Of a DNA stretch of 64,000 nt, positions 29,887-47,991 are shown one piece after another. Source of the DNA: an uncultured Alphaproteobacteria bacterium (GTDB lineage: Bacteria > Pseudomonadota > Alphaproteobacteria > RF32 > CAG-239). Under the pieces are notes generated by a model. It worked only from the letters and a program-made list of their open reading frames with translations. It was not told where the DNA came from and did not search any database. Within the stretch, counting starts at the first letter, position 1; the number at the start of each line of letters is the position of its first letter. Position numbers and translations under genes: made by a program. Location of the stretch: contig CALXWB010000001.1 in NCBI GenBank assembly GCA_944392225.1, positions 855 through 64,854 on the forward strand. Reading direction: 5' to 3'.

Positions 29887-29963
29887 GGCGAACGTAGCTC
29901 AGTTGGTAGAGCCCCGGTTTGTGGTACCGGTTGTCGTGAGTTCGAGCCTCATCGTTCGCCCCA
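29887..29963 (+). tRNA. tRNA-His (anticodon GTG) with encoded G-1 and CCA
   Basis: Manual cloverleaf: G-1, acceptor GCGAACG/CGTTCGC, D arm GCTC-AGTTGGTA-GAGC, anticodon arm CCGGT-TTGTGGT-ACCGG, T arm GTGAG-TTCGAGC-CTCAT, C73, CCA. Confidence 0.9.
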
Positions 29964-30463
29964 GATTTCATATTTAAGCACCTGTAATAAGGTGCTTTTT
30001 TTGTATCTATCCATAATGAGGCTCGAACCGAGGTTCGTCTGACTTGTAAGTGTTTTATAAAACACTAACGCGCTGCGGTCACTTGATTTGTAACGCTTTG
30101 TCAGCGGCGTTATCACTTGCTTCAAAGCTAACAAATCTGCGCCTGTCGTCAGAAAATTCTCCGCTGGAGAATTTTCTTTCCTCCAGCCTCATCGTTCGCT
30201 CCAGATTTCATGTTTAAGCACCTGTAATAAGGTGCTTTTTTTGTGCCTATCCATAATGAGGCTCGAACCGAGGTTCGTCTGACTTGTAAGTGTTTTATCA
30301 AACACTAACTGCGCTGCGGTCACTTGATTTGTAACGCTTTGTCAGCGGCGTTATCACTTGCTTCAAAGCTAACAAATCTGCGCCTGTCGTCAGAAAATTC
30401 TCCGCTGGAGAATTTTCTTTCCTCCTCTGACTTGTAAGTGTTTTATCAAACACTAACGCGCTG
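29945..30463. repeat. tandem direct repeat (2 units of ~240 nt plus a 38-nt fragment) starting inside the tRNA-His 3' end
   Basis: Unit 1 is 29945-30184 and unit 2 is 30185-30425 (5 substitutions and one 1-nt indel by my comparison). The fragment 30426-30463 matches 30038-30075. Confidence 0.9.
29976..30002 (+). terminator. rho-independent terminator after tRNA-His (second copy at 30216-30242)
   Basis: aagcacc-tgtaataa-ggtgctt followed by ttttt. Confidence 0.7.
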
Positions 30464-30540
30464 TAGCAACAAAAAAAAAGCTTCGTCTTTTTTTTCAAAA
30501 CAAAGCTTTTTTGTTAAATTAATACTTTTCCTGTTCGGGC

Positions 30541-32763
30541 TTAACGCTCTAATTCTTCTTCAGAAAATTCTTCTCCTCCCGAATTGTCGTTATCCTCATC
30601 CACATCAATACCCAGTTTGGCCAGCATATTGTCGTTAATATCTTCTCGCTGCGCCACAATCCAATCCGGCACGTTGGGTGAGGGCGGTAGTTTTGCCATG
30701 GCCGTCATCTGTTTGTCCCAGAACCAACGCGGCGCATCGGCCATAATCGGACGGTCAATATAACTTTGCATCAGCACCACTTGCTTTGATGTCGGCAAGC
30801 TCAACAATTGTGTCGTGCTGATAACCGGCACACCTTGTAATTGGTAACTCACATTTTTGGAGAACGGGTTTTGTCCCTTTGCCATACCAAAAGTATTTTC
30901 CGTTTTGGAAAATGAGGTTGTTTGCACGGTCTTATTACCAATCATCTTGGAAAAACGCTGGGCCGTTACCTCGTTGTTTTGTGACAAAATAACTTTGCAG
31001 GCTGTGGTTGAAATAACGGTTTCAAGATCGTCTTTACCATATTTACCTGAAATTTGTCCTAAATCTTGTCCGATGAGCAGGTATGAAACTTTTTGACCAC
31101 GTCCGACTGCCGGGCCTTCAATGATGGCGCTTAACTTCGGCATGGTCGGAAACTCGTCGAGCACAAACAAGGTTGGAAAAGGTCCCATCTTACCGTCACT
31201 CTTGTTGACAAAGTTTGGCGGATTTGCAATCAGATAGTTGGACATTAAGTCAATAAATGTTCCTGAAATCACGCTCAAAGCTTTGGCATCAACCTGGTTT
31301 ACCGACAGATAAACCGAAATTGGTTTCCATTGCCCGGTTATCGGGTCTTTCATACCGCGCAGGTCTTTGAAGTTGATATCACTGAAACTTGTTCTGGCCA
31401 CAACGGCGGCGTTTTTGAAAATGCCAATACCGCTGAATGCCGTTGACAAAACTGAACCTCTTTCTTTATCCGGCATGGAGCTTAATTGGCTCAACTCAAC
31501 CACACAACGTTGCGAATAGCCAAATTTTCTGGCTTCCACAATGGCTTCTTCCAACAAATCTCTCATCGGATCAGCCATGGCAGCCATTTGGTCTCCTTCT
31601 TCCAAGCGGCGCTTGATGTCTTGCGATTGTTTGATTTGTGCTTCCGTAATCCATTCCAAAATCATGGCAATGCACGCTTCTCGGCCAACCCAACGTTCGG
31701 GCAACAGATTCCAGGTGCCGATGGGCAGATAGTTGTCTATGGTCAGATTGTTGTTTCTCAAGTTGGCCACGGCACGGCTCGCCATCGGGTCATTCATTTC
31801 CAAATAATAGCCTTCCAGAACCTTTTTGTCTTCTTCATCCAACTTTCCTTCATAGATGCGTCCGATGAAATAGTCGTTGGCACGTGCTTTTTCACACTTA
31901 AAGGCAATAAAATGCAAAAATCCGGTCAAGGCCGCACGACCTGTTTTGGACCAGTGCGGGTCTGCGCCGCCTTTGGGGTCTTCCACCAAAACATTGCACA
32001 TGGAGTCAATATACATGTCTCGCGCCGGGCCGGGAGCAGGAATGGCTGACGGAGAAAGCGGATTCCAGCTCGGATAATAAATACCCTCTGCCGGGTTGTC
32101 TTCTGCACCCCAGTTGATGACAAATACCGGGCCAACCTTAGCTCTGGCCCCGGTCGTCGAAAAACACAATTCCGGCTTGGGGTCGTTGACCACAATGCTC
32201 ATGCCGTTGGAGTAAAAAATCGTGGGCATCACCACACCAACGGTTTTACCTGTTCCCGGAGGGGCACAACACAATGTTGACAAGGTTTCATTTAGTTTCA
32301 AAAGGTGGCCTTTGTATTTTCCAACCACTTGACAAAAACCGTTTAACAAGCCCATCTTTTTGATATCTCTCATTTCGGCTAACCTTGCCGAACCATGAAT
32401 GTTGGACTGAAAACGATATGGATTGGTGATTATTCCAACTGCCAAAATCAGCGGAAAACTAATAAATGGCAGAATCGGCAACCACAAGCCAAAAGAAAAT
32501 GCACCGTTATAGTGATATATTTGGCTCATCCAACTGCCATAACGTGAAAAAAGATAGTCCGGGTTGTTAAATATCATGCTTAAAAAACGACCCACATCGC
32601 TGATGGATTGTTTTGAGATACCACTGCCAATCAGATATCCCAACGGCATTGATATGATGGCTAATGCTATGGTCACACCTAAGGCTGTTAAAACCGTAAT
32701 GGACATCCATTTTACAGCGCTGTTATATTCTTCCCATTCTTCACCTTTTTTTTCTACGGCCAT
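30541..32763 (-). CDS. type IV secretion coupling protein (VirD4/TraG family ATPase)
   Basis: 740 aa. N-terminal TM helices, HGSARLAEMRDIKKMGLL, Walker A CCAPPGTGKTVGVVMPT, Walker B LFVLDEFPTMPKL, LIGQDLGQISGKYG and an acidic C-terminal tail. Confidence 0.9.
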   Translation of the reverse strand: MAVEKKGEEWEEYNSAVKWMSITVLTALGVTIALAIISMPLGYLIGSGISKQSISDVGRFLSMIFNNPDYLFSRYGSWMSQIYHYNGAFSFGLWLPILPFISFPLILAVGIITNPYRFQSNIHGSARLAEMRDIKKMGLLNGFCQVVGKYKGHLLKLNETLSTLCCAPPGTGKTVGVVMPTIFYSNGMSIVVNDPKPELCFSTTGARAKVGPVFVINWGAEDNPAEGIYYPSWNPLSPSAIPAPGPARDMYIDSMCNVLVEDPKGGADPHWSKTGRAALTGFLHFIAFKCEKARANDYFIGRIYEGKLDEEDKKVLEGYYLEMNDPMASRAVANLRNNNLTIDNYLPIGTWNLLPERWVGREACIAMILEWITEAQIKQSQDIKRRLEEGDQMAAMADPMRDLLEEAIVEARKFGYSQRCVVELSQLSSMPDKERGSVLSTAFSGIGIFKNAAVVARTSFSDINFKDLRGMKDPITGQWKPISVYLSVNQVDAKALSVISGTFIDLMSNYLIANPPNFVNKSDGKMGPFPTLFVLDEFPTMPKLSAIIEGPAVGRGQKVSYLLIGQDLGQISGKYGKDDLETVISTTACKVILSQNNEVTAQRFSKMIGNKTVQTTSFSKTENTFGMAKGQNPFSKNVSYQLQGVPVISTTQLLSLPTSKQVVLMQSYIDRPIMADAPRWFWDKQMTAMAKLPPSPNVPDWIVAQREDINDNMLAKLGIDVDEDNDNSGGEEFSEEELER

Positions 32764-32785
32764 GTTTTTCCCTCAAAAAAATTTT

Positions 32786-34120
32786 CTATGCTATGTTTCG
32801 TATCAGTTTCTTTATTTTTTCTAATTTGTCTTTGTCAATATTTTCAATTGTTTCATCAAGAGCTTTGACAAAAGGTTTAATCTCTTTTGGCGTGCCTCTG
32901 TCTATGCGGCAGACATTAACCCCTATTTCATCCCAAATATCAAACATATCCTCTGCATTGATGATGTTGCCGATTTGTTCAATCACATATGCCTTGACCT
33001 CAAAATGAAAATCGGCTTCTTCTAGTTTTTCTACCAAATATTGGCGTGCCAAATCGGCTTTTCTGACCGGCGATATGCGGTGTGAACTTTCTGAAAACCA
33101 CAAGGGTTCTTCATCGTTGAACCGCTCTTCATCTGCCAGCCAATCTCCCGGTTCTTTATCTATCATACAAATACAAATTTGGTTGGCGGCTATGCCGATA
33201 AAATCTATTAAGGTGTTTTTGATGGTTAATCCCGTTAAAACTTCATAACCTTTTTGCTTGATTACATCCAGAACGGAGTTCCCTGACCCTTGTGTGCCGG
33301 AAGCAGAATTTCTTTGTTGCTTGTTGCCCCTATTGTTGTTTTGGCTGGAAACAGGCGTTCCGTTTGACTTCTTGTTTTTATTCTTGTTCCTATCTCTATC
33401 TCTATCTCTTTCCGTCGGCGCAGGCTTGCCGTTTACTGCTGATTTGTTACTTCCTTCATCGGATTCCGGCTTGGCTTTTGCATCATCATCAAAGGCATCA
33501 AAGTCAAACTCAAAATCATCATCATCGTCAAAATTGAACAAAGAATGGCTGAACGTGCCGTTGTCTGTTGTTTGAGAATTTGCCGGAGCAGGTTGGTTGT
33601 TTGATGCCGGCAACACATTTGCTGACTGAGCTATTGGAGCGGCAATTGTTGGAATAGGGGTGTTGTTGGTTGTTGATGCCGTTTCATAAATTTTTTCATC
33701 CATCGGCATGCGAACACTTTTGGGCCTGATTTCTTTGTATGATTTTTTCTTTTTTATCTTCTTTATCCCGGTGGTGCTGGCTATTACTTTGACTTGTTGG
33801 AAAAAGATTTTTTTCAACAAGTTGACGGGAAGTGCAATTATTGAGCGCAAAAGTTTTTCCCAGTTGATTACGCTTAAGGCAGCCCAGCCCGTTAACCAAA
33901 GCGGAATAAATGTTAAAATGATTAAAACAAAGGCCCATTCTTTGGCATCGGCTATCACCCAGCCGGATAACCATAAATCCCACGCATATTCCCAATGATC
34001 TTTGCGCAAAATGTCAAACCGCCAGTTCTTGAGCATGATAACGCGTATACCTTCCAGAAAAAATATGCTCCAGAAGATACCAACGCAGATTATTCTTATC
34101 AATATCAATAACGGTTTCAA
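32786..34120 (-). CDS. membrane protein with low-complexity linker and C-terminal NERD/PD-(D/E)xK-like domain (tentative)
   Basis: 444 aa. The N-terminal ~100 aa are paralogous to the ORF at 34171-34665. The linker has DDDDDFEFDFDAFDDD and DRDRDRNKNKNKK. The C-terminus GYEVLTGL...IDFIGIA...ICICMIDKEPGDW...ISPVRKADLARQYL resembles NERD. Confidence 0.65.
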   Translation of the reverse strand: MKPLLILIRIICVGIFWSIFFLEGIRVIMLKNWRFDILRKDHWEYAWDLWLSGWVIADAKEWAFVLIILTFIPLWLTGWAALSVINWEKLLRSIIALPVNLLKKIFFQQVKVIASTTGIKKIKKKKSYKEIRPKSVRMPMDEKIYETASTTNNTPIPTIAAPIAQSANVLPASNNQPAPANSQTTDNGTFSHSLFNFDDDDDFEFDFDAFDDDAKAKPESDEGSNKSAVNGKPAPTERDRDRDRNKNKNKKSNGTPVSSQNNNRGNKQQRNSASGTQGSGNSVLDVIKQKGYEVLTGLTIKNTLIDFIGIAANQICICMIDKEPGDWLADEERFNDEEPLWFSESSHRISPVRKADLARQYLVEKLEEADFHFEVKAYVIEQIGNIINAEDMFDIWDEIGVNVCRIDRGTPKEIKPFVKALDETIENIDKDKLEKIKKLIRNIA

Positions 34121-34170
34121 ACTTTATGCTCCAGGTCTTTTCCTTATGTCTTGCTGTGGATTCTTTTTTC

Positions 34171-34665
34171 TTATTCTTTATAATGAACGGAATTTATTTT
34201 TTCTGCAACTGCTTGTCTTATTTTATTCACTTCTTCATCGGTTCTAATGGGTTCTTTCGGTTTGCTTTTCATTTCAAGCTCTTCTTCGGCTTTCATCAAT
34301 TTTGTGCCCATGTTCTTTATTTTTAATTTGGATATGTCTTTTTCATAATTTTCCAAAGTTTTTTTATTGTATAGTGCAAAAGGTTCCAACAACAGCTGAA
34401 TATAGTCTATATGGTAGCATTTTTTCCAGCCCCAGAGCCATAGCGGAATGTATAAAACAAAAATGAACAGCAGGAGATAATCTTGCCAGGTGCGAATAAC
34501 GCCGCCGGCTTCCCAATATGAATTTATTAATTGCCAACTCTGTGCCGATAATAAATTGAAATTCCAAAAATAATCAAGAATAAAGTTTACCAGCTTGAAA
34601 AAAACTATTGTCCATATAATTCCAACAATCAGAAACTTAATCAACTTTAAAATTTTTTTCAGCAT
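34171..34665 (-). CDS. membrane protein, paralogue of the N-terminal module of the 32786-34120 product
   Basis: 164 aa. Shared motifs are VGIIWTIVFF/VGIFWSIFFL, NFNLL..SW/RFDIL..HW and IPLWLWGW/IPLWLTGW. Confidence 0.65.
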   Translation of the reverse strand: MLKKILKLIKFLIVGIIWTIVFFKLVNFILDYFWNFNLLSAQSWQLINSYWEAGGVIRTWQDYLLLFIFVLYIPLWLWGWKKCYHIDYIQLLLEPFALYNKKTLENYEKDISKLKIKNMGTKLMKAEEELEMKSKPKEPIRTDEEVNKIRQAVAEKINSVHYKE

Positions 34666-34668
34666 GGC

Positions 34669-36597
34669 CTATTCTCGTCCTCTGGCAAAAGGAATTTTAA
34701 TGTCGGGCGAACCTTTTTGCTCGGGAGCTTTTTCTTGAGTTAAGTAGCTTCGGATTTCATTTCTTTTGTTTCTTGCTTGATCTGCCATTATCAAAAGTCC
34801 TTGTTGGTCTGCATCTAAACCATCCAGTGCAATTTTATGTGTGCGATCAACTTGCTGCCATTGAACCGCTTCTTCTCTTAGCGGTGTTGGCTCTTCTTCC
34901 TCCAGCAACCCATTATAGGAAATTAATATCATATTGTTTTTGGTTCTTACGCCTTTTTCGTCATAGCGATCGTCAGTTAGCTCTTTTTTGCCAAATTTTA
35001 TGGCTTTTTCCATATCTTTTGATATTTGTGTCATTGTGGTTTTGAAAAAGTCAAATTTCTGAGATGCTTGCGGGTCTTTTTGAGCTTCCTTGTATAATTT
35101 CTTTTTTATGATTTTGTTGGCTCGTTGGCTTCTTTCTTCATACAAAGCATTTACATCTTTGTCTTTATGCGCATCTTTATCGTGTAGTTTATCATCCAAC
35201 AAGCTGGCTCTGGTATAATCATCTATGGTTTTCATATAAGTCATGGCCAAGTTTGTGAGCAGGGGCACGGTTTTTTTCGGATCGCCGACACTTAAAAGCT
35301 GCCCGATGTTTACGCCGGAAAGTTCGGCAAAATCTCTCAACAGCGGGTTTTCTGCTATCACATTGCCAAGCTTGCCTTCTTTTATGTCTTTGATAATTTG
35401 TTTATTGTTGCAAGCATCGGTATAAGCTTGCATTTTCTTGTTTGATGTCTTTTGCAGCGAATCGGCAAATTTGTGCGTTTCATCAGGATCGTTTTGTTTC
35501 TTTGCAGTCTCTGCCTTGCTGTCATTGTAGCTGCTTCTTATTTCATTGATGATGCCGGTTAATAAATATTCCGTTTGATCCAAAACCCAGTTGGTGGCGG
35601 CATTGGCTGCTGCCAAAAACCATTCTTTGAACATGGCATCAATAATATCCATTTCTTGCCATTTGAAGTCATTATGACCGGGAGCGTGCTTGTTGTCAGT
35701 GCCTGCTTTGAAGTCACTGGTTTTCTCCGGCGTTGATTTTCCTTCATCTACTTTTGTGGTTTGCGGGCCTTCTTTTTCTCCTTCATTGACGGTTGTGGTC
35801 TTTTGTCCTTCATTGACCTTGGTGTTTGCTTTTTCGTTAATTTTAAGCGTTTTTATTTTGCTTTCTTTTTGAATCAGATGATCTACTTGGCCATTGGCAA
35901 ATTTTTCCCACAAAAGACGTGAAGAATATATGTTGTTTATGGCTCTCTTGGCTTGATCCGATAAGGCGCTGGCTTTTAGCTCAAGCTCTTGCGGCTTGTT
36001 GTCTTGCATTCGGTATAATTTATTATCGCGCGTTAAAACATATTGCACTTCGTTTCCGTTTTCATCCAACTGGCGGATATACCCGCTTTCGTTTTCATCA
36101 AACTCAACCATGCTCACGGCATCGCCGTTGCCGTCTAAATAGGTGAATGTTTTGCCGGAAAGATTGTTCTTTCCTTTTGCTTTTTGATGATCAAAACTGA
36201 TAACTATATCATTAACCTTTTCCGGCTGGCGCAGGCCGCTTTTTAATTCGGGAGTGGCTTTGAGCTCAATTTCTTTGCTCATGACCAAACGCTTATCACG
36301 CATTTGCTCTTTCAAGTTTGCTATTTGTTTTCTGATTGCATCATTGGCAAACATGGAGTCATATGCTCCGCAAAACTCTTCAATCTTGGAGAAATCTGAG
36401 ATATTGTATCGTCCCATGTTCAAATCTACAAAAAAACCGTCAAGCTGGGCTTGAATGTTTTCTTGTGAAATGTTTTTCAAAAATGTTTCTTTTTCTTCCG
36501 GTTTTTGTTGCGCATAAGAATTTGCCGTGTTGGCCAGATTGCGTCTTTGTTCAACAAACGTTTGGACTGCATTTTTGATATCTTCTTTTCCCGACAT
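34669..36597 (-). CDS. hypothetical protein (642 aa)
   Basis: Long ORF, co-directional with its neighbours, with a 3-nt gap to the next gene. K/E/D-rich with a short V(N/D)EG repeat patch. No family recognised. Confidence 0.65.
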   Translation of the reverse strand: MSGKEDIKNAVQTFVEQRRNLANTANSYAQQKPEEKETFLKNISQENIQAQLDGFFVDLNMGRYNISDFSKIEEFCGAYDSMFANDAIRKQIANLKEQMRDKRLVMSKEIELKATPELKSGLRQPEKVNDIVISFDHQKAKGKNNLSGKTFTYLDGNGDAVSMVEFDENESGYIRQLDENGNEVQYVLTRDNKLYRMQDNKPQELELKASALSDQAKRAINNIYSSRLLWEKFANGQVDHLIQKESKIKTLKINEKANTKVNEGQKTTTVNEGEKEGPQTTKVDEGKSTPEKTSDFKAGTDNKHAPGHNDFKWQEMDIIDAMFKEWFLAAANAATNWVLDQTEYLLTGIINEIRSSYNDSKAETAKKQNDPDETHKFADSLQKTSNKKMQAYTDACNNKQIIKDIKEGKLGNVIAENPLLRDFAELSGVNIGQLLSVGDPKKTVPLLTNLAMTYMKTIDDYTRASLLDDKLHDKDAHKDKDVNALYEERSQRANKIIKKKLYKEAQKDPQASQKFDFFKTTMTQISKDMEKAIKFGKKELTDDRYDEKGVRTKNNMILISYNGLLEEEEPTPLREEAVQWQQVDRTHKIALDGLDADQQGLLIMADQARNKRNEIRSYLTQEKAPEQKGSPDIKIPFARGRE

Positions 36598-36675
36598 CTT
36601 TTTTTCCCCAATAGTTATCTTTTTTGTTCTAATTTTAGCATTGTTTTTGCGTTTTGTCTATATTTTTCTCTAAAA

Positions 36676-37626
36676 CTAAGCCTTTAAATTTTTGAGAAAA
36701 TTTCCCAGTTCTTTGTTCACTCTGATTCCGTCTTCGGGCTTGGCTTTTATCAGGCCAAAAAAGCGGTCTTTAATCTTGCTTACCTCTATCGGGGAAAATG
36801 TGGCCGGGTTGTTGGTCAAAACTTTATAGGCACCGTCGGCATCGCGGGCGGCATTTTTGAAGTAGTTGTTGACCAAACGTTCGGCATTGACGGGAAATTC
36901 TTTATCCTCAATGGCGTTAATATATTTTTTCATTTTTTCTACGCGGCGTTGATGCTCTTCAACAATTTCTTTTTCTATCTTTTTTCTTTTGGCTTTAAGA
37001 CGCCTTTTTTCATAGGCAATTTCACAGCCTTCAAGCTCTATCAACGTTTCTACATATGAAATGATAAACATTTGCAAATCTTCATCCGTGACTTTTTCTG
37101 CATAATTTAGCAGGTCTTCGTCACTGGCTCCGGGGTTGATATTTTGAACTCTGCTCGGATAAGCCTTGATTAAAATGTCCCAACAACGAAGTGTGTCATA
37201 GGCAAAATCTTGGTTCAAATAAGGTTTGTAACGCGGTAATAGTAATTCTTCTTTGATTCTGAATTTTGGTAAGTTTATTTTGTTCTTTTTGGCAATTTGT
37301 TCGGCGCTTTTGATAAAGTTTGAATATGCATCAAAAAGGTTTTTTTCTTCTTCTGCCAGTTTTGACGGAGTTCCGTTTTGTTCCTGTTTGACAACGGAAT
37401 CTTTATAATCGTTGATCATGGTGGAGGTATCATCCGGGGTGATTTCAGAAGAAATAAATTCCTGCAGCAATTTTTCAAATTCTTCATCGTCATCGTTGTC
37501 GGAAGAAGATGTGGCTTCATCAGTTGTATCTTTGCCGTTTGAAGCCTTTGGTTGCACAGTTTCTATATCTGCGTTTTTTAACAGCTCATCAATTTTTTTA
37601 TCTAATTCTTCTAATTCGTTACTCAT
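36676..37626 (-). CDS. hypothetical protein (316 aa, acidic N-terminus)
   Basis: First large ORF of the minus-strand block. No family recognised. Confidence 0.65.
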   Translation of the reverse strand: MSNELEELDKKIDELLKNADIETVQPKASNGKDTTDEATSSSDNDDDEEFEKLLQEFISSEITPDDTSTMINDYKDSVVKQEQNGTPSKLAEEEKNLFDAYSNFIKSAEQIAKKNKINLPKFRIKEELLLPRYKPYLNQDFAYDTLRCWDILIKAYPSRVQNINPGASDEDLLNYAEKVTDEDLQMFIISYVETLIELEGCEIAYEKRRLKAKRKKIEKEIVEEHQRRVEKMKKYINAIEDKEFPVNAERLVNNYFKNAARDADGAYKVLTNNPATFSPIEVSKIKDRFFGLIKAKPEDGIRVNKELGNFLKNLKA

Positions 37627-37638
37627 GATTTGTTCCCT

Positions 37639-37923
37639 TTAATTTGCTTTAAGAGTTGCTTCACGCTGCAGGCTTTCGGTGTTGAAGATGATGATGCGGT
37701 CTGAAACACCGCCCCCAATGCTCAATATGTATAATCGGTTGTTGTCGGCCTTAAAATCTTTGATATAGCTCCCTTCAGGCAGGCGTAACGAGATTTCTTT
37801 TTCCGGCATTTTTTCCGTATTGTGCGTTTTTTTCAGCAGCGTTCCGAGAAAAAGCAATGTGCTGAATATCAATAAAAAAGTTAGGACAAAAACAATTGTT
37901 TTAACAAGTTTTAATTTATCCAT
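37639..37923 (-). CDS. small membrane-anchored hypothetical protein
   Basis: 94 aa with one N-terminal TM helix (TIVFVLTFLLIFSTLLFLGTLL) and a short beta-rich domain. It may be a conserved core gene divergent from rluD rather than part of the VirD4 block. Confidence 0.55.
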   Translation of the reverse strand: MDKLKLVKTIVFVLTFLLIFSTLLFLGTLLKKTHNTEKMPEKEISLRLPEGSYIKDFKADNNRLYILSIGGGVSDRIIIFNTESLQREATLKAN

Positions 37924-39977: not shown

Positions 39978-40484
39978 CTATTTTGATATGCCGTTGATTT
40001 GTTGGTCAATGATTTCTTCACCCCAATCTTCAGAAATTTTTTTCAATTGCTTATCTATATATATCAGGCGTTTTTGTGAACTGATTTTGGTGATGAAGGC
40101 AAAAAGATTTGGCATTTCATAATATAAGACAAAACCTAAAGCTGCCGAGCCCAACATAATCAGCATATTGAGCACATCTCCGAATAGGAAAATGTTTTCA
40201 TCAAAGGTCATTTTGTTTAAAACATTTACCAGATAAATAAACAAACCGGCAACGTTGAAACAGCCGATGATGATGAGCTTTGCCGAATCTTTCGGGCTGA
40301 CAAACATGACCGTCAATGTTGGTAACAGACCAATCAAAAGAACGATGATGGCCGGCAAAAATGACGATGCCACAATGGCTATGAACACAAAAAGCAAAAC
40401 CTTTCTGGCCAAGGATAATGACTTAAAGGACTTTGAAAAATTTGCACTTTTTTTCTTGATGGGCTTTTTCATTGCGATATCCAC
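39978..40484 (-). CDS. hypothetical polytopic membrane protein
   Basis: 168 aa with about four hydrophobic helices. Its start overlaps the upstream pseudokinase gene by 16 nt. Confidence 0.55.
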   Translation of the reverse strand: MDIAMKKPIKKKSANFSKSFKSLSLARKVLLFVFIAIVASSFLPAIIVLLIGLLPTLTVMFVSPKDSAKLIIIGCFNVAGLFIYLVNVLNKMTFDENIFLFGDVLNMLIMLGSAALGFVLYYEMPNLFAFITKISSQKRLIYIDKQLKKISEDWGEEIIDQQINGISK

Positions 40485-45417: not shown

Positions 45418-46374
45418 TTATTCTTTGTAAGAAGCCCTCTTAATCCGATCATTAATGGCCAAGCCCAAGTCATTTTCGGGAATGGGCGCCATGGCAATGC
45501 CTTTGAAATTGGGCTGAGCATCGGCAAAGCGCAGATAGGCAAACAGATTGGCTGCGGCCTCTCTTAAATCGCCTTTGGGACTCAAATTGAGGTGTGCTTG
45601 CGGCGTATTGCCAAAACCAATGTAAAATTCATCGGCTTGCGGCTCGGCGACGTTAATGCGCAAGGTTTTTCCGGGGGCATAGTGCTTGAGCAACTGTCCG
45701 GGGGCGCTGGGTTTGTTGGGGTCTCCGTGCGAGATGAGAATCTTTTCTCCCGTATATTCTTCCAACTCTTCTTTGCTCATGCCGCCGGCTCTGAGCATGA
45801 CAATGTCTTTGGTGGTCAAATCAATAATCGTGGTTTCCACGCCAACCTTGCAACGACCGCCATCCAAAATCATATCCACCTTATCGCCCAGGCTGTTGTA
45901 AACGTGATATGCCGTGGTGGGCGAAATGCTCTTAAATTTGTTGGCGGAAGGGGCGGCAATTGGGGTGCCGGACAAACGTATCAGCTCCAGAGCAATCGGG
46001 TGATTAGGCATTCTGACCGCAATATTTGGCAGGCCGGAGCAAACCAAATCAAGCGCATGATTTTTGTCTTTTCTCTTTAAAACAAAAGTCAGAGGTCCGG
46101 GCCAAAAATGGCGCGCCAAATCCATCACGCGGCTATCGGTCTCAGCATATTCGGGCAAAAAATCTATATCGGCAATATGCGAAATCAATGGATCAAAAGT
46201 CGGGCGTTGCTTGACGGCAAAAATGTTGGCAACGGCTTTTGTATTATATACATCGGCTCCCAAACCATAAACCGTATCGGTTGGAAAAGCAACCAAGCCG
46301 CCGTTTTTGATGGTTTCGGCTGCTTTTTGGATGTTTTCTTTGCTATATTCAAAAATATTGTTCGTCATCTTCAA
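45418..46374 (-). CDS. L-threonylcarbamoyladenylate synthase (Sua5/YwlC type TsaC)
   Basis: GGLVAFPTDTVYGLGAD, RPTFDPLI and SANKF, plus a Sua5 C-terminal domain. Confidence 0.9.
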   Translation of the reverse strand: MKMTNNIFEYSKENIQKAAETIKNGGLVAFPTDTVYGLGADVYNTKAVANIFAVKQRPTFDPLISHIADIDFLPEYAETDSRVMDLARHFWPGPLTFVLKRKDKNHALDLVCSGLPNIAVRMPNHPIALELIRLSGTPIAAPSANKFKSISPTTAYHVYNSLGDKVDMILDGGRCKVGVETTIIDLTTKDIVMLRAGGMSKEELEEYTGEKILISHGDPNKPSAPGQLLKHYAPGKTLRINVAEPQADEFYIGFGNTPQAHLNLSPKGDLREAAANLFAYLRFADAQPNFKGIAMAPIPENDLGLAINDRIKRASYKE

Positions 46375-46777
46375 TCTTAAATAAATATTTTATTGCTTTG
46401 ATTAAACTCGGAAAACTTTCTAGCACTTCCATACTGTCTTTGTCAATTGTTTGATAACATTTATTTTTCTGATTATAGGCCATATATTCAAATTCATCAT
46501 AGCCCAAAATGAGCAAGTTTTCTTTGTTTGGCAAGTCCAAATTAGCATTTTCGGCAAAAATATCCAGATAGTATGAATTGGGATTAATGCCAAATAAAAA
46601 GCTGCCGTCATATTCCATTGTGTTGATATGGTGCATCAGTTCTGCAAAATCTTGCGGGATGGCCGCCATTTTGTTGATTTTCAAATCTTGTTGCGTGCGG
46701 ATGATTTGTTCTGCCGTTGCCGGCTTGGCCGTCAGTGTCAGAGGCAGATTTTGCAATATTTCTATCAGTTCTTTCAT
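46349..46777 (-). CDS. SUKH/SMI1-KNR4-like protein (putative immunity protein)
   Basis: 142 aa. AEQIIRTQQDLKINKMAAIPQDFAELMHHINTMEYDGSFLFGI follows the SMI1/KNR4 pattern. ATGA overlap with the upstream HNH-like gene. Confidence 0.5.
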   Translation of the reverse strand: MKELIEILQNLPLTLTAKPATAEQIIRTQQDLKINKMAAIPQDFAELMHHINTMEYDGSFLFGINPNSYYLDIFAENANLDLPNKENLLILGYDEFEYMAYNQKNKCYQTIDKDSMEVLESFPSLIKAIKYLFKIEDDEQYF

Positions 46778-47991
46778 TTTTTATTTTGTTTGCCATTTAT
46801 TAAAACGGTTAATATTTTGGCATATTCTGCTTCTTGTTGGTGGTATATTTGGAATTTTTTATCAAACCCGCCAAAGAATATCATGCCTTGGGGCAGCAAA
46901 ACTCTTTTGACCTTGCGGTTGAAAATGGTTTTGCCTAAAACATTGGTATCAAACAGATGCAGCATGTTGTGATATGGAGCTTCCAAAATTAAGCAAAGGT
47001 TGTTCGGATTGTTGGCCGTGCTCAAATTTTCTTCGGTTTTGCTGTCTTTGACCGGGTTTTTATGATGTATGTTGAACAAGGGTGGAACCGAGCCTTTGGT
47101 CTTCATTTGCAAAATGTTTTTTTCTACCCATTCTTTATATGCGCGCGGATTTTTTTTGTCATCCAAACTTATGCCTTTATTGTGCAAGGCTTGACGAATG
47201 GTTTGCTCGTTTTCAAACATATAGCTTCTGAATTCTTTTTCATGATGCCCGATAAAAAATTTAATGAACTTTGATTTTGCCGTTTCAAAGCTTGGAATGT
47301 CATGTCTTTGATTATAGCCTTTGAGAAGAGCAATTAGATCATAAGCATTGAGCTGACCAATGTCTGACGGTGGAATTTTTGCTTCGGCCATAGCTTGAGC
47401 AAAATAGCCGGCACGTTTTTTGAAAGAGGAAAATTGTCTGAAATATTTCCAAGAAGGAATCATATCAACATTATATTGTTCACCGATATATTCTTTTTCT
47501 TCGGTTTTTGCCTTGTCTTGTTCAATATGTGCTCTGAAATATGGAGAGAGCATTTCTTTTGACGGATAGTGCGACATGCCGTGGAACTCGGTTTTAATCA
47601 AAAATTTTTGTTCCGGGGAGATGAGGCTTTCTTCTCGCTCTACAAAATTTAAGCCTTCATCTTTCATAATCTGAGCAATGTTTTGTTTTATTTCAGAATT
47701 TTTGCCGGCGGCAATGTTCAAAATAAGCTTTTCCGTTAATATTTTTTTATAAAGCTGTAATTTATATTCTTCGGTATTTTTTTTGTTGGTCTGAATGAAT
47801 AAGATATCAAGAGAGTTCTTGAGGCAGAGCAAATTTTCATATGTGGTGCTGGTGTTTGTTCTTTCTTGGTTTCTATTATGGCGGCGTTTTTTTTGCGAGA
47901 GAGCGTCCAAAGCTTTTGGCAAAACAATCATGTATGCTAACTCTTTGCCAATGCTGATATTTAATCCTTGCGGTTTTTCCTTTTTCGCCAT
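46774..47991 (-). CDS. protein with C-terminal HNH/AHH-like nuclease motif
   Basis: 405 aa. NIHHKNPV...NNPNNLCLILEAPYHNMLH fits the HNH/EndoVII pattern (HH..P, NL, H...H). The N-terminal 300 aa are unrecognised, and there is no signal peptide. Confidence 0.55.
   Translation of the reverse strand: MAKKEKPQGLNISIGKELAYMIVLPKALDALSQKKRRHNRNQERTNTSTTYENLLCLKNSLDILFIQTNKKNTEEYKLQLYKKILTEKLILNIAAGKNSEIKQNIAQIMKDEGLNFVEREESLISPEQKFLIKTEFHGMSHYPSKEMLSPYFRAHIEQDKAKTEEKEYIGEQYNVDMIPSWKYFRQFSSFKKRAGYFAQAMAEAKIPPSDIGQLNAYDLIALLKGYNQRHDIPSFETAKSKFIKFFIGHHEKEFRSYMFENEQTIRQALHNKGISLDDKKNPRAYKEWVEKNILQMKTKGSVPPLFNIHHKNPVKDSKTEENLSTANNPNNLCLILEAPYHNMLHLFDTNVLGKTIFNRKVKRVLLPQGMIFFGGFDKKFQIYHQQEAEYAKILTVLINGKQNKK

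What the first reader, a model, noticed from the sequence alone, without database searches (positions are those of the whole stretch)
30541..37626. Orphan VirD4/TraG-type coupling ATPase closing a five-gene operon of unplaceable proteins, next to the tRNA-His repeats
Seen: the ORFs at 36676-37626, 34669-36597, 34171-34665, 32786-34120 and 30541-32763 are all on the minus strand, with gaps of 78, 3, 50 and 22 nt, so they look co-transcribed. The last product has every VirD4/TraG landmark: N-terminal TM helices, HGSARLAEMRDIKKMGLL, Walker A CCAPPGTGKTVGVVMPT and Walker B LFVLDEFPTMPKL. Nothing else in the 64 kb resembles a T4SS channel or energiser (VirB4, VirB11, VirB6-10, Trb/Tra), a relaxase, a pilin or an integrase. 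The four upstream products gave me no family by eye. They are a 316-aa acidic protein, a 642-aa K/E-rich protein with a V(N/D)EG repeat patch, and two membrane proteins. The operon's 3' end lies 78 nt from the last tRNA-His-associated repeat, and both flanks (PBP5-like/mipZ and rluD/rpoH) are core genes, so the block looks inserted. Inference: the conservative reading is a decayed integrative/conjugative element that kept only its coupling protein. The more interesting reading is a coupling ATPase working with dedicated, undescribed membrane and soluble partners, either as substrate adaptors or as a different DNA- or protein-handling machine.
Basis: partly seen in the sequence, partly recalled or inferred. 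Interest (0 to 1): 0.7.

Follow-up and report, generated by a model that had tools for sequence, protein, structure and literature searches.

The report
Conserved coupling-ATPase module with nuclease-like partners
A type IV secretion "coupling" motor gene that looked like a leftover of a mobile element is instead a strongly conserved core operon of uncultured gut Alphaproteobacteria, always paired with a membrane protein that carries a nuclease-like domain; whether it feeds a secretion channel encoded elsewhere or works in a new way is still open.

Summary
Five minus-strand ORFs, plus a sixth 94-aa ORF 12 nt upstream, end in a real VirD4/TraG-type coupling protein (T4CP). No T4SS, relaxase or integrase gene lies in the 64 kb.

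The "inserted block / decayed ICE" reading fails:
- GC is flat.
- The gene order is kept in about 75 species-level gut alphaproteobacterial genomes.
- The T4CP (median 81% identity) is better conserved than RpoH (63%).
- The variable part is the tRNA-His side, not the operon.

The "dedicated partners" reading is supported. The 444-aa protein has two TM helices, a disordered linker and a divergent NERD/PD-(D/E)xK-like domain. Its homologues sit directly upstream of a T4CP in six further, distant contigs (GC 28-51% where measured), in housekeeping context where enough flank exists. No VirB gene lies in the DNA held.

These T4CPs form a clade: 48-64% identity to the window protein against 33-36% for the nearest plasmid VirD4. 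In the five aligned they share a ~55-aa insertion in the all-alpha domain.

An HNH-like and SUKH-like gene pair follows the T4CP in many relatives. In the window a related pair lies at 46.3-48.0 kb. The 316-aa and 642-aa proteins are gut-clade additions.

My best guess (about 0.45) is a substrate-receptor complex for a T4SS encoded elsewhere. A T4SS-independent DNA-handling machine is not excluded.

The parts
30541..32763 (-). VirD4/TraG-type coupling protein (T4CP), 740 aa. It has two N-terminal TM helices, an intact Walker A and B, an all-alpha domain with a clade-specific ~55-aa insertion (about aa 297-350), and an acidic C-terminal tail.
   Evidence: Pfam PF02534, PF12696 and PF10412 all score above gathering. 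It falls below every NCBIfam VirD4/TraG subfamily cut-off. The insertion and motifs are shown in alignments A4. Median identity is 81% over 80 species.
32786..34120 (-). The conserved partner, 444 aa. It has a Trp-rich N-domain with two TM helices (1-116) and a disordered linker with a basic KKKKSYKEIRP patch and an acidic FDxDDDFDFDFDAFD patch. Its cytoplasmic C-domain (283-444) has an alpha-beta3-alpha-beta-alpha-beta NERD / PD-(D/E)xK-like fold and an invariant loop, GDWLADEERFNDEEPLWFSESSHR.
   Evidence: Supported by alignment A1 and the AF2 model. The top Foldseek PDB hits are all PD-(D/E)xK nucleases (E about 1e-2, probability 0.9-0.97). Pfam NERD scores E 0.024 here and is hit by 25 of 73 family members, best 2e-6. 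The gene sits upstream of a T4CP in L083-L086, L088 and L092.
34171..34665 (-). 164-aa membrane protein. It is a paralogue of the N-terminal 2-TM domain of the 444-aa protein followed by a short charged helix. In distant relatives this position holds a second full-length paralogue.
   Evidence: BLASTP gives 33% identity over 97 aa, E 5e-15. L083 and L084 carry two full-length paralogues in tandem.
34669..36597 (-). 642-aa fast-evolving, charged, probably soluble protein. It has one conserved hydrophobic/amphipathic helix (W.E.DII.AMFKEWFLAAANAATNW; GDIIxYM in relatives) and a basic, disordered C-terminal tail. It is specific to the gut clade and is a candidate cargo or adaptor.
   Evidence: A single ORF of 437-755 aa fills this position in all 74 related loci that have both flanking genes. 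An iterated HMM joins all 75 sequences, the window's included. Identity is only 25-36% where BLAST detects it. The last 30 aa carry a net charge of +2.8, against -0.25 per 30 aa overall. It has no Pfam, NCBIfam or PHROG family and is absent from the distant loci.
36676..37626 (-). 316-aa acidic soluble protein (pI 4.98). It has a conserved N-terminal DDDEFE+LL+EFI motif followed by a confident all-helical domain with no known fold relative. It is specific to the gut clade.
   Evidence: Supported by alignment A2. The AF2 model has pLDDT 79.5, above 90 for residues 90-210. The best Foldseek PDB match has E 1.2. It is absent from the distant loci.
37639..37923 (-). 94-aa small membrane protein (DUF6476), 12 nt upstream of the 316-aa gene. 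It is possibly the first gene of the transcription unit. Whether it belongs to the system is uncertain.
   Evidence: Pfam DUF6476 scores 26.2 bits against a cut-off of 24. It is syntenic in 73 of 80 loci. A promoter-like site lies at 38043-38016 on the minus strand.
30474..30512 (-). Terminator-like hairpin followed by a T-run, 29 nt after the T4CP stop. It is the likely end of the operon.
   Evidence: Found by the terminator scan and listed as inverted repeat I12.
46774..47991 (-). 405-aa protein with a C-terminal HNH-like motif (NIHHKNP...NNLCLIL..PYHNMLH). It is a divergent relative of 'protein A', which directly follows the T4CP in 31 of 80 related loci and in L083, L084 and L088.
   Evidence: The protein A HMM scores E 1.3e-5 against the window proteome. 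The family profile's best PDB hit is the pyocin AP41 HNH DNase, aligned over the HNH motif (E 0.053). The downstream A/B pair is shown.
46349..46777 (-). 142-aa relative of 'protein B' (SUKH/SMI1-KNR4-like). Its gene overlaps the end of the HNH-like gene.
   Evidence: The protein B HMM scores E 2.5e-15. The L033 copy hits Pfam SMI1_KNR4 at E 1.9e-4, which is below gathering.
29888..30463 (+). tRNA-His followed by 2.5 copies of a 240-nt unit. This is the boundary of the variable region and not part of the module.
   Evidence: tRNA-His is called and the repeats. The unit is conserved at 69-80% nt identity downstream of tRNA-His in seven other species. It matches no Rfam family.

Best explanation
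This is a vertically inherited, lineage-core coupling-protein module, not a mobile-element remnant.

Shown:
- A VirD4-type ATPase belongs to a distinct clade. The clade is marked by a ~55-aa insertion in the substrate-binding all-alpha domain.
- It is encoded together with one or two paralogous inner-membrane proteins. Each of these has a Trp-rich 2-TM domain. The full-length ones also carry a cytoplasmic, divergent NERD/PD-(D/E)xK-like domain with a hyper-conserved acidic-aromatic loop.
- In many genomes an HNH-like protein and a SUKH-like protein follow directly.
- The gut clade added an acidic helical protein (316 aa), a fast-evolving charged protein with a basic C-terminal tail (642 aa), and perhaps a small DUF6476 membrane protein.

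Inferred mechanism:
- The 2-TM partners pack against the T4CP transmembrane stalk.
- They place the NERD-like domain next to the ATPase ring, as a membrane-bound substrate receptor or adaptor. In logic this resembles DotM with DotL in Legionella.
- The complex selects cargo. Candidates are the 642-aa protein and the HNH-type nuclease, which the SUKH-like protein would hold in check in the producer.
- The complex then pumps the cargo into a type IV channel encoded elsewhere in these small genomes.

On this reading the locus is the receptor half of a split T4SS, used for contact-dependent delivery into neighbouring bacteria or host cells.
For: **Core status**
- Synteny is kept in about 75 species representatives.
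- 275 species-level genomes encode a relative.
- T4CP median identity is 81%, against 63-64% for RpoH and RluD.
- GC is flat.

**Real T4CP derived from MPF-T VirD4**
- Pfam scores are above gathering.
- The nearest annotated relatives are VirD4 proteins that close complete virB2-virB11 operons on alphaproteobacterial megaplasmids (33% identity, E 2e-104).
- All NTPase motifs are kept.

**Dedicated partner**
- Seven of seven examined members of the closer 444-aa subfamily lie directly upstream of a same-clade T4CP. These are the window, L083, L084, L085, L086/87, L088 and L092.
- The five compared T4CPs are 48-64% identical to the window protein and share the insertion.

**Orientation**
- A basic patch follows TM2, so the NERD-like domain is cytoplasmic, on the same side as the ATPase.

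**Cargo-like neighbours**
- The HNH-like protein A (its profile aligns to the pyocin AP41 DNase motif) and the SUKH-like protein B follow the T4CP in 31 of 80 gut-clade loci and in three distant loci.
- The 642-aa family evolves fast yet keeps a basic, disordered C-terminus. From general knowledge, that is a feature of VirB/D4 substrates.

**Established knowledge**
- T4CPs are known to act only as substrate receptors for a T4SS channel.
- T4SS genes are scattered in other reduced alphaproteobacterial genomes, such as Rickettsiales.
- RF32-type gut Alphaproteobacteria are genome-reduced and are thought to depend on other organisms (PMC13155120). That the window belongs to GTDB order RF32 is my inference from names such as 'Azospirillum sp. 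CAG:260'. It was not tested.
Against: - No VirB/Trb/Dot gene or relaxase was seen in the 64-kb window or within the DNA held (up to 10 kb each side) in 80 gut-clade loci (1.57 Mb in all).
- None was seen among the called genes of the six distant contigs. Two of these contigs are short (L084 8 kb, L092 3.8 kb), so they show little flank.
- The existence of a channel elsewhere is assumed, not shown.
- The A/B pair is conserved across distant lineages rather than polymorphic, which is unusual for toxin-immunity cargo.
- Most A copies have HL instead of HH in the HNH motif.
- No similarity to DotM, IcmS/W or any known T4CP adaptor was detected.
- More distant members of the 2-TM/NERD family occur without an adjacent T4CP: L089 and L093 next to lptD-surA, and L094 next to accBC. 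The family therefore has a T4CP-independent role somewhere.
Confidence: 0.45

Rival explanations
1. T4SS-independent DNA-handling machine. The VirD4-type hexamer acts as a membrane-anchored DNA pump. It works directly with the membrane-tethered NERD-like domain and the HNH-like protein, following the pump-plus-nuclease logic of HerA-NurA and HerA-nuclease systems. Possible roles are DNA export or uptake across the inner membrane, processing of chromosomal or foreign DNA at the membrane, or a division-linked role.
For: - Two nuclease-fold proteins (NERD-like and HNH-like) are linked to the ATPase across distant lineages.
- No T4SS gene lies within the DNA held in 86 loci.
- The module sits among housekeeping genes such as murB/murJ/bamD/thyX/rplT and accBC/tkt.
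- Its sequence conservation exceeds that of RpoH, which is more typical of a core cellular function than of an accessory secretion system.
- The NERD-like domain is also fused to other ATPases (SpoVK-type AAA+) in unrelated proteins.
- From general knowledge, T4CPs belong to the FtsK-HerA pumping-ATPase superfamily, and nucleases recur next to its members.
Against: - The canonical catalytic residues of the NERD-like domain are not conserved family-wide. D306 is lost in some members and K322 is variable.
- Most A proteins have a degenerate HH-to-HL motif.
- No T4CP is known to function without a T4SS.
- A diderm cell would still need an outer-membrane route for export or uptake.
- Absence of a T4SS elsewhere in the genome has not been shown.
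Confidence: 0.25
2. Conflict system: a membrane-bound toxin or defence module. The T4CP-like ATPase senses or captures incoming conjugative or phage DNA, or exports a nuclease toxin by another route. The NERD-like and HNH-like proteins are effectors and the SUKH-like protein is the immunity factor.
For: - An HNH-like and SUKH-like pair lies next to the T4CP.
- The NERD-like domain recurs inside TPR-Roc-COR-TIR giants and AAA+ fusions, architectures typical of conflict systems.
- A variable cargo region and, in L088, a prophage lie next to the module.
Against: - No PADLOC model hits any of the six proteins.
- Defence systems are normally patchy and fast-turning. This module is syntenic in about 75 species, with a T4CP at 75-91% identity.
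- The A/B pair is dispensable at this site, being absent after the T4CP in 49 of 80 loci and in the window, while the T4CP and its partner are always kept.
Confidence: 0.1
3. MOB_C-like mobilisation module. As in plasmid CloDF13 (MobB coupling protein plus the restriction-endonuclease-like relaxase MobC; recalled from memory, not tested here), the T4CP plus a PD-(D/E)xK-type nickase would mobilise the adjacent tRNA-His cargo islands, or the chromosome, through a T4SS supplied in trans.
For: - A T4CP is paired with a PD-(D/E)xK-like protein and has no T4SS of its own.
- The module abuts a tRNA-His site where cargo differs between species.
Against: - The 444-aa C-domain finds nothing in 72,556 plasmids even at E 10.
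- The protein is an integral membrane protein with poorly conserved catalytic residues.
- In the other lineages the module is not next to a tRNA or cargo island.
- Strict vertical conservation argues against a mobility function.
- No integrase lies in the window.
Confidence: 0.07
4. One reading: a decaying integrative/conjugative element inserted at tRNA-His that has lost everything except its coupling protein.
For: - The T4CP lies 78 nt from repeats that duplicate the 3' end of tRNA-His.
- No partner T4SS genes are nearby.
Against: - Composition is flat.
- All NTPase motifs are intact.
- The T4CP is 75-91% identical across 80 species and better conserved than its housekeeping neighbours.
- The same operon order holds throughout the clade.
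- The partner gene co-occurs with the T4CP in distant lineages at other chromosomal sites.
Confidence: 0.03

Closest known systems
VirD4 coupling proteins of alphaproteobacterial MPF-T (VirB-type) conjugative megaplasmids, such as the Erythrobacter aureus YH-07 plasmid NZ_CP031358 and Sphingosinicella p1 NZ_CP035502
   Same: These are the nearest annotated relatives: 33-36% identity over about 95% of the length, E 2e-104. They share the 2-TM N-terminus, Walker A and B, the NDPKPEL block and the all-alpha domain.
   Different: The plasmid proteins close a complete virB2-virB11 operon with a MobA/MobL relaxase. The window protein has neither nearby. It carries a ~55-aa insertion in the all-alpha domain shared only within its own clade, and it is chromosomal and lineage-core.
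Legionella Dot/Icm coupling complex (DotL with the membrane partner DotM, plus DotN, IcmS/IcmW and LvgA); general knowledge
   Same: It works like this in outline. The gene for a membrane partner with N-terminal TM helices and a cytoplasmic domain lies directly upstream of the T4CP gene. Small acidic soluble adaptors are present, and acidic peptide motifs occur in the partners.
   Different: No sequence or fold similarity was detected. phmmer of the T4CP finds no PDB chain. Foldseek of the 444-aa and 316-aa models does not return DotM, DotN, IcmS or IcmW. The partner domain here is NERD/PD-(D/E)xK-like. No Dot/Icm genes are nearby.
NERD (nuclease-related domain, Pfam PF08378), PD-(D/E)xK superfamily
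   Same: The C-domain of the 444-aa family has the alpha-beta3-alpha-beta core. Its best structural matches are PD-(D/E)xK nucleases. 25 of 73 members hit PF08378, best E 2e-6.
   Different: The window protein scores below the Pfam cut-off (15.6 against 22.1 bits). The (D/E)xK lysine is not conserved. The family-defining feature is instead the GDW(L)ADEE.F..E.PLWFSE..H..SP loop.
CloDF13-type MOB_C mobilisation module (T4CP-like MobB plus restriction-endonuclease-like relaxase MobC); recalled from memory
   Same: A coupling protein is encoded with a PD-(D/E)xK-fold protein and has no T4SS of its own.
   Different: That module is plasmid-borne and mobile, and its relaxase is soluble. Here the module is chromosomal, vertically inherited and membrane-anchored, with no detectable similarity to any plasmid protein.
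Bacteria-killing X-T4SS of Xanthomonadales (VirD4 recruiting toxins paired with immunity proteins); general knowledge
   Same: A VirD4-type protein is encoded next to a putative nuclease toxin and immunity-like pair.
   Different: In X-T4SS, virD4 sits with the virB operon and the effectors carry a C-terminal XVIPCD. Here no virB genes are near, the HNH-like domain is itself C-terminal, and the pair is conserved rather than polymorphic. XVIPCD was not tested.
HerA-NurA and HerA-nuclease assemblies (FtsK-HerA superfamily pump plus nuclease); general knowledge
   Same: A hexameric pumping ATPase of the same superfamily is genetically coupled to a nuclease-fold protein.
   Different: Those systems are soluble and have no homology to the proteins here beyond the superfamily level. 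The ATPase here is an unambiguous VirD4/TraG member with a membrane stalk.

Membership tests
Type IV coupling protein (VirD4/TraG/TrwB; Pfam PF02534, PF10412, PF12696) | Sequence match above the curated Pfam thresholds | tested here: met
   PF02534 scores 198.1 bits (cut-off 20.1), PF12696 80.5 (22) and PF10412 59.5 (20.5).
Type IV coupling protein (VirD4/TraG/TrwB; Pfam PF02534, PF10412, PF12696) | N-terminal transmembrane stalk, Walker A and Walker B, all-alpha domain | tested here: met
   The translation shows them. Alignments with plasmid VirD4 show APPGTGKT, NDPKPEL, (L/M)DEF and GRGQKVSY/GRSKKVSY conserved, and the all-alpha domain present with a ~55-aa insertion.
Type IV coupling protein (VirD4/TraG/TrwB; Pfam PF02534, PF10412, PF12696) | Encoded with, or functionally tied to, a T4SS channel (VirB4 and others) and/or a relaxase | tested here: not met
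   A tblastn of VirB2-B11 and MobA against the window plus 80 loci (1.57 Mb) hit nothing but the T4CP. No T4SS Pfam family appears among the called genes of six distant contigs. Genome-wide presence could not be tested.
Named VirD4/TraG subfamilies (NCBIfam equivalogs PRK13897, PRK13850, PRK13876, PRK13880, TraG-Ti, TraD_Ftype, CD1115) | Score above the curated equivalog or subfamily cut-off | tested here: not met
   The best scores are 136.6 against 250 and 132.7 against 728. phmmer finds no PDB chain at E <= 0.01.
NERD domain (PF08378) / PD-(D/E)xK fold, for the 444-aa C-domain | Pfam match above gathering | tested here: inconclusive
   The window protein scores 15.6 bits against 22.1. 25 of 73 family members match at E <= 0.1, best 2e-6. 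A 'weak' NERD hit is on record for the L084 paralogue.
NERD domain (PF08378) / PD-(D/E)xK fold, for the 444-aa C-domain | alpha-beta-beta-beta-alpha-beta core fold | tested here: met
   The AF2 secondary structure is H283-289, E293-300, E303-310, E314-320, H351-368, E374-382. The Foldseek top hits are R2 RLE, N.BspD6I, Card1/Can2 and Bax1, at probability 0.85-0.97 but E only about 1e-2.
NERD domain (PF08378) / PD-(D/E)xK fold, for the 444-aa C-domain | Catalytic D...(D/E)xK residues | tested here: inconclusive
   D306 and D321-K322-E323 are invariant in the gut clade. In distant T4CP-linked members D306 can be G or P and K322 varies, and only a D-x-(E/D) pattern is mostly kept.
Integrative/conjugative or mobilisable element | Integrase or relaxase, compositional deviation, patchy distribution, flanking att repeats around the block | tested here: not met
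   No integrase or relaxase is present. GC is flat. The gene order is conserved in about 75 species. The tRNA-derived repeats are tandem on one side only, and the unit is itself conserved in other species.
Dot/Icm T4CP complex (DotL-DotM-DotN-IcmSW) | Homology of the partners to DotM, DotN, IcmS, IcmW or LvgA | tested here: not met
   No Pfam or NCBIfam hits. Foldseek against PDB returns none of them for the 444-aa and 316-aa models. The 164-aa and 642-aa proteins were not modelled.
HNH nuclease toxin + SUKH immunity pair (polymorphic-toxin type), for proteins A and B | HNH (beta-beta-alpha-Me) motif in A | tested here: inconclusive
   The A-family profile's best PDB hit is the pyocin AP41 DNase, aligned over EnFnvHlKiPldfGG..NlsLi..HeniH (E 0.053). 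The only Pfam trace is HNH_2 in 1 of 23 members, at E 0.2. Most copies have HL in place of HH, but the window copy has HH.
HNH nuclease toxin + SUKH immunity pair (polymorphic-toxin type), for proteins A and B | SUKH/SMI1-KNR4 fold in B, and variability typical of toxin-immunity loci | tested here: inconclusive
   SMI1_KNR4 scores E 1.9e-4 (22.5 against 25.4 bits) for one copy only, and SUKH_5 and SUKH_6 are weaker. The pair is conserved across distant lineages rather than polymorphic.
Known anti-phage defence systems (PADLOC-DB) | Match to a PADLOC model | tested here: not met
   None of the six operon proteins gives a hit at E <= 1.

The most novel reading that the evidence does not exclude
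A VirD4-type coupling ATPase has been domesticated as the motor of a T4SS-independent, inner-membrane nucleic-acid-handling machine. Its parts would be the T4CP hexamer, 2-TM NERD-like partners, and an HNH-like/SUKH-like pair. The machine would be core to a whole radiation of uncultured, genome-reduced Alphaproteobacteria, including abundant human-gut lineages. This would be the first coupling protein shown to work without a type IV channel.
Probability: 0.22. Interest if true: 0.85.

Novelty: new variant of a known kind. Interest (0 to 1): 0.62.

Why it matters
Coupling proteins are textbook accessories of conjugation and effector-translocation machines. They normally travel with mobile elements. 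Here one clade is fixed in the core genome of a widespread group of uncultured, genome-reduced gut Alphaproteobacteria, and it is conserved more tightly than sigma-32.

The clade is locked to a partner family that no database describes: a Trp-rich 2-TM anchor plus a NERD-like domain with an invariant acidic-aromatic loop.

If a T4SS exists elsewhere in these genomes, this locus defines a new type of substrate-receptor complex. It would also point to a contact-dependent delivery system that may explain how these metabolically poor bacteria live off neighbours or host. If no T4SS exists, it would be the first coupling protein working outside type IV secretion.

Either way the finding gives:
- a clean sequence marker, the ~55-aa insertion;
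- a defined gene set for phylogenetic profiling and biochemistry;
- an unannotated domain that also appears in AAA+ and TPR-Roc-COR-TIR proteins.

Tried and rejected
**Dead ends**
1. A PADLOC scan of the six operon proteins (plus p168 and p679) gave no hit to any operon protein; only the kinase-like p679 matched, and a PHROGs scan of the six gave only chance-level hits.
2. phmmer of the T4CP against PDB found no chain at E <= 0.01.
3. A PDB profile search with the 444-aa C-domain gave only chance hits.
4. Foldseek of the 316-aa model found no fold relative (best E 1.2).
5. A tblastn of the 444-aa C-domain against plasmids found nothing.
6. Rfam on the tRNA-His repeat region found only the tRNA.
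7. No tandem repeats scored in TRF.
8. HMMs of the 316-aa and 642-aa families against all ORFs of the distant loci gave no hits, so these two are clade-specific.

**Lost or unproductive searches**
I replaced it with exact-sequence contig look-ups.
2. A viral-contig scan with the same alignment found no relative.
3. Extending the window's own contig failed. One edge protein is not on record, and the other returned only a 1.5-kb contig.
4. Literature searches found nothing relevant. The terms covered RF32 with type IV secretion, orphan VirD4/T4CP, NERD with coupling protein, SUKH with VirD4, and Azospirillum sp. CAG with secretion.

**Considered and rejected**
1. A Dot/Icm-type (T4BSS) identity for the T4CP. 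Its nearest relatives are MPF-T VirD4 proteins.
2. Recent insertion at tRNA-His.

Full report
**1. The observation**

All five ORFs exist at the stated coordinates on the minus strand, with gaps of 78, 3, 50 and 22 nt.
- The last product (740 aa) passes three Pfam T4CP models far above their thresholds: T4SS-DNA_transf E 3e-58, TraG-D_C and TrwB_AAD_bind.
- It contains the quoted Walker A, Walker B and HGSARLAEM motifs.
- It falls well below every curated VirD4/TraG/TraD subfamily cut-off of NCBIfam.
- phmmer finds no PDB chain. It is a real but divergent coupling protein.

The four upstream products have no family in Pfam, NCBIfam, PHROGs or PADLOC beyond chance-level hits.

tRNA-His (29888-29963) is followed by 2.5 copies of a 240-nt unit. 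The unit begins with the last 22 nt of the tRNA and ends 78 nt from the T4CP stop.

Nothing else in the 64 kb looks like a T4SS component, relaxase or integrase:
- The gene map shows gyrA, flagellar export genes, relA/spoT, lepB, rnc, era and similar.
- Ten ORFs I could not place by eye gave no such Pfam family.
- A tblastn with a complete VirB2-B11 + MobA set hits only the T4CP.

Two additions to the observation:
- A sixth ORF (94 aa, DUF6476) lies 12 nt upstream on the same strand.
- A terminator-like hairpin follows the T4CP stop.

**2. It is not an insertion**
- GC content does not change across the block.
- The T4CP has very many close homologues (81-91% identity among the best 120 listed) in gut metagenome assemblies. 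Sources name them 'Azospirillum sp. CAG:260' and similar.
- A scan of one genome per GTDB species found relatives in 275 species. I fetched the best 80 loci, all MAGs labelled Alphaproteobacteria, proteobacterium or Candidatus Scatocola.
- NCBI files Ca. Scatocola under Rhodospirillales incertae sedis. I believe GTDB places these lineages in order RF32, but that rests on my own knowledge.
- In every locus with enough flank the order is the same: p679-p168 / rpoH-rluD / p94-p316-[large ORF]-p164-p444-T4CP.

Median identities to the window proteins over these species:

| Protein | Median identity |
|---|---|
| T4CP | 81% (range 75-91) |
| Phosphoglucomutase | 76% |
| MipZ | 68% |
| PBP5-like | 66% |
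| RluD | 64% |
| RpoH | 63% |
| p444 | 54% |
| p316 | 48% |
| p94 | 45% |
| p164 | 36% |

The coupling protein is thus the best conserved gene of the neighbourhood. This is incompatible with a decaying remnant.

The variable part is the other side. tRNA-His/PBP5/mipZ lie 1.4 to 9 kb beyond the T4CP in 14 loci, and tRNA-His alone is seen in two more. Unrelated cargo lies in between, for example an ArsR-type regulator and a P-type ATPase in L033. The 240-nt unit after tRNA-His is itself conserved at 69-80% nt identity in seven other species. It is repeated in at least two of them and matches no Rfam family.

**3. The 444-aa and 164-aa proteins**

The 444-aa protein has over 1,000 unnamed homologues with no Pfam annotation. 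The alignment and an AF2 model show three parts:
- A Trp-rich N-domain with two TM helices (residues 1-116).
- A disordered linker (about 120-280). It has an invariant basic patch (KKKKSYKEIRP) just after the membrane and an acidic FDxDDDFDFDFDAFD patch.
- A C-domain (283-444) with an alpha-beta3-alpha-beta-alpha-beta topology. It contains an invariant 30-residue loop, DKEPGDWLADEERFNDEEPLWFSESSHRxSPVRK.

The evidence for a NERD/PD-(D/E)xK-like fold:
- Foldseek against PDB returns only weak matches (E about 1e-2), but the top ones are consistently PD-(D/E)xK nucleases. They are R2 retrotransposon RLE, N.BspD6I nickase, Card1/Can2 and Bax1, at probability 0.85-0.97.
- Pfam NERD is a sub-threshold hit for the window protein (E 0.024).
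- NERD is hit by 25 of 73 family members, best E 2e-6.

I therefore call it a divergent NERD-like domain. Whether it cleaves DNA is open. D306 and D321-K322-E323 are invariant in the gut clade. In distant members D306 and K322 vary, and the truly family-wide feature is the GDW(L)ADEE...PLWFSE..H..SP loop.

The basic patch after TM2 places this domain in the cytoplasm, on the side of the ATPase.

The 164-aa protein is a paralogue of the N-domain only (33% identity, E 5e-15).

**4. The partner co-occurs with the T4CP far beyond the gut clade**

A profile of the C-domain searched against 1.84 billion cluster representatives finds 318 clusters, 61 of them at E <= 1e-30. Many have the same three-part architecture.

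Exact-sequence look-ups of six distant representatives each show the gene immediately upstream of a 705-788-aa T4CP. Where enough flank is held, the context is ordinary chromosomal DNA and no T4SS family appears among the called genes.

| Representative | Locus | GC | Context |
|---|---|---|---|
| P0388 | L083 | 51% | unannotated neighbours |
| P0458 | L084 | 37% | 2-hydroxyacid dehydrogenase upstream |
| P0485 | L085 | 28.5% | murB, murJ, bamD-like; thyX, rpmI-rplT-pheS |
| P0426 | L086/87 | 42% | tkt, fba, accBC, dsbA |
| P0407 | L088 | not measured | next to a prophage and anmK |
| P0399 | L092 | not measured | 3.8-kb contig, almost no flank |

- The five T4CPs compared (L083-L086, L088) are 48-64% identical to the window protein. 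The nearest plasmid VirD4 proteins reach 33-36%.
- All five share a ~55-aa insertion in the all-alpha domain (NDYF...GTW) that the plasmid proteins lack.
- L083 and L084 carry two full-length paralogues of the partner in tandem. The gut clade's 164-aa gene therefore looks like a truncated second copy.
- Three still more distant members of the family are not next to a T4CP: L089 and L093 (paralogue pairs beside lptFG-lptD-surA-rsmA) and L094 (beside accBC).
- The C-domain also occurs fused to SpoVK/CbbX-type AAA+ ATPases and embedded in TPR-Roc-COR-TIR giants.
- Only one cluster carries a taxon name, 'Alphaproteobacteria bacterium'.

**5. Two more conserved genes**

In L083, L084, L088 and in 31 of the 80 gut-clade loci, two genes follow the T4CP directly.

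*Protein A* (184-360 aa)
- It has a conserved N-terminus (MWEWS / MWDWSG), a disordered linker, and a C-terminal block G..PEN.N.HLK.P.D.GG...F.N..LI.THP.H..IH.
- The family profile's best PDB hit is the HNH DNase domain of pyocin AP41, aligned exactly over the HNH motif. The E-value is only 0.053. The second hit is a group II intron maturase HNH domain.

*Protein B* (143-182 aa)
- One copy gives a sub-threshold SMI1_KNR4/SUKH hit (E 1.9e-4).

In the window the T4CP is followed by the terminator and the tRNA-His repeats instead. HMMs of A and B pick out an overlapping gene pair at 46774-47991 (E 1.3e-5; motif NIHHKNP...NNLCLIL..PYHNMLH) and 46349-46777 (E 2.5e-15).

**6. The gut-clade additions**

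*The 316-aa protein*
- It is acidic (pI 4.98).
- It has a conserved N-terminal DDDEFE+LL+EFI motif.
- Its all-helical model is confident (pLDDT 79.5) and has no structural relative in PDB.

*The 642-aa position*
- In every related locus a single ORF of 437-755 aa occupies it.
- BLAST sees only 25-36% identity in a minority of loci. An iterated HMM nevertheless unites all 75 sequences, the window's included.
- The family keeps one hydrophobic helix motif (GDIIxYM...W).
- It also keeps a disordered, basic C-terminus: net +2.8 over the last 30 residues, against -0.25 per 30 residues overall, often ending in G-(R/K)-(D/E).
- From general knowledge, a basic unstructured C-terminus is what VirB/D4 substrates carry. 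This is a resemblance, not a test.

Neither family is detectable in the distant loci.

**7. Origin of the T4CP**

The nearest annotated relatives are VirD4 proteins of alphaproteobacterial megaplasmids (Erythrobacter, Sphingosinicella, Microvirga; 33% identity, E 2e-104). Each sits at the end of a complete virB2-virB11 operon with a MobA/MobL relaxase. The clade therefore descends from an MPF-T type VirD4. It was separated from its channel genes before the sampled lineages diverged.

**8. What it most likely is**

Shown:
- a distinct, vertically conserved T4CP clade;
- obligate linkage to a 2-TM NERD-like partner in the closer subfamily;
- frequent linkage to an HNH-like/SUKH-like pair;
- no T4SS gene within the DNA held around it in any of 86 loci.

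Inferred:
- The partners assemble with the T4CP at the inner membrane into a substrate-receptor complex, the functional analogue of DotL-DotM.
- This complex feeds cargo into a T4SS encoded elsewhere. Candidates are the fast-evolving 642-aa protein and the HNH-like protein, which its SUKH-like neighbour would hold in check.

I prefer this reading (about 0.45) for three reasons. No coupling protein is known to work without a channel. Scattered T4SS genes are common in reduced alphaproteobacterial genomes. The neighbours look like adaptors and cargo.

The main rival (about 0.25) is a T4SS-independent pump-plus-nuclease machine. It is favoured by the two nuclease-fold partners, the housekeeping context and the extreme conservation. 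Defence/toxin, MOB_C-like mobilisation and decayed-ICE readings are less likely, for the reasons given under each.

The decisive test is a T4SS census of complete genomes of the clade.

**9. Novelty and context**

Full-text searches found no description of an orphan or chromosomal T4CP clade, of a NERD-T4CP pairing, or of secretion systems in these gut Alphaproteobacteria.

A general T4SS survey notes only that mobilisable elements occasionally carry a T4CP without a T4SS (PMC4027160).

RF32-type bacteria are described as uncultured, genome-reduced specialists with fewer than 2,000 genes that probably depend on other organisms (PMC13155120). A conserved contact-dependent delivery system would fit that lifestyle.

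I rate the finding as a new variant of a known kind: a coupling protein with a new, conserved partner set and a new genomic status.

Noticed in passing
window 29942-30463: The ~240-nt unit after tRNA-His holds three hairpins, including the tRNA terminator. It is tandemly repeated 2.5 times here. It is conserved at 69-80% nt identity downstream of tRNA-His in seven other species and repeated in at least L014 and L010. It matches no Rfam family. It could be a conserved small RNA or a recombination (att-like) site at a cargo hotspot.
   Followed up: partly
window 46349-47991 (minus strand): An overlapping gene pair encodes an HNH-like protein (405 aa, NIHHKNP...NNLCLIL..PYHNMLH) and a SUKH-like protein (142 aa). 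They are divergent relatives of the pair that follows the T4CP in many related genomes. They look like a nuclease toxin-immunity pair.
   Followed up: partly
window 39978-42508 (minus strand): A 679-aa Ser/Thr-kinase-like protein (kinase-domain hits to PADLOC MkoA, mad6 and PD-T4-6 models) overlaps a 168-aa multi-TM protein. The pair is syntenic with the operon's neighbourhood in 56 of the 80 related loci, on the far side of rpoH-rluD.
   Followed up: no
proteins P0421, P0433, P0466, P0472, P0473, P0478, P0497, P0504, P0508: The NERD-like domain with the GDW(L)ADEE...PL(W/Y)F(S/T)E loop also occurs at the N-terminus of SpoVK/CbbX-type AAA+ ATPases (AAA + AAA_lid_6). It is also embedded between the TPR repeats and the Roc-COR-TIR part of ~1,500-aa proteins. 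It is an unannotated, promiscuous domain.
   Followed up: partly
L089 6103-10656; L093 10001-13025; L094 691-1956: More distant members of the 2-TM/NERD-like family sit without a T4CP. Some are tandem paralogue pairs beside lptFG-lptD-surA-rsmA, and one lies beside accB-accC. The family therefore has a T4CP-independent role in other Alphaproteobacteria.
   Followed up: partly
L054 3696-8224: In this relative the fast-evolving 642-aa-type gene is duplicated (two 533-aa ORFs), with a 282-aa ORF between the copies.
   Followed up: no
L033 13375-15608; L088 1-7022: The DNA next to the module varies between genomes. L033 has an ArsR-like regulator and a P-type ATPase between the T4CP and tRNA-His. 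L088 has T7-like prophage structural genes just upstream of the partner gene.
   Followed up: no
window 30541-30600, 33480-33540, 37470-37500 (protein level): Three proteins of the operon carry short acidic motifs with Phe. The T4CP C-terminal tail has EEFSEEELER, the 444-aa linker has FDFDFDAFDDD, and the 316-aa N-terminus has DDDEEFEKLLQEFI. These may be docking peptides for a common basic surface. This was not tested.
   Followed up: no
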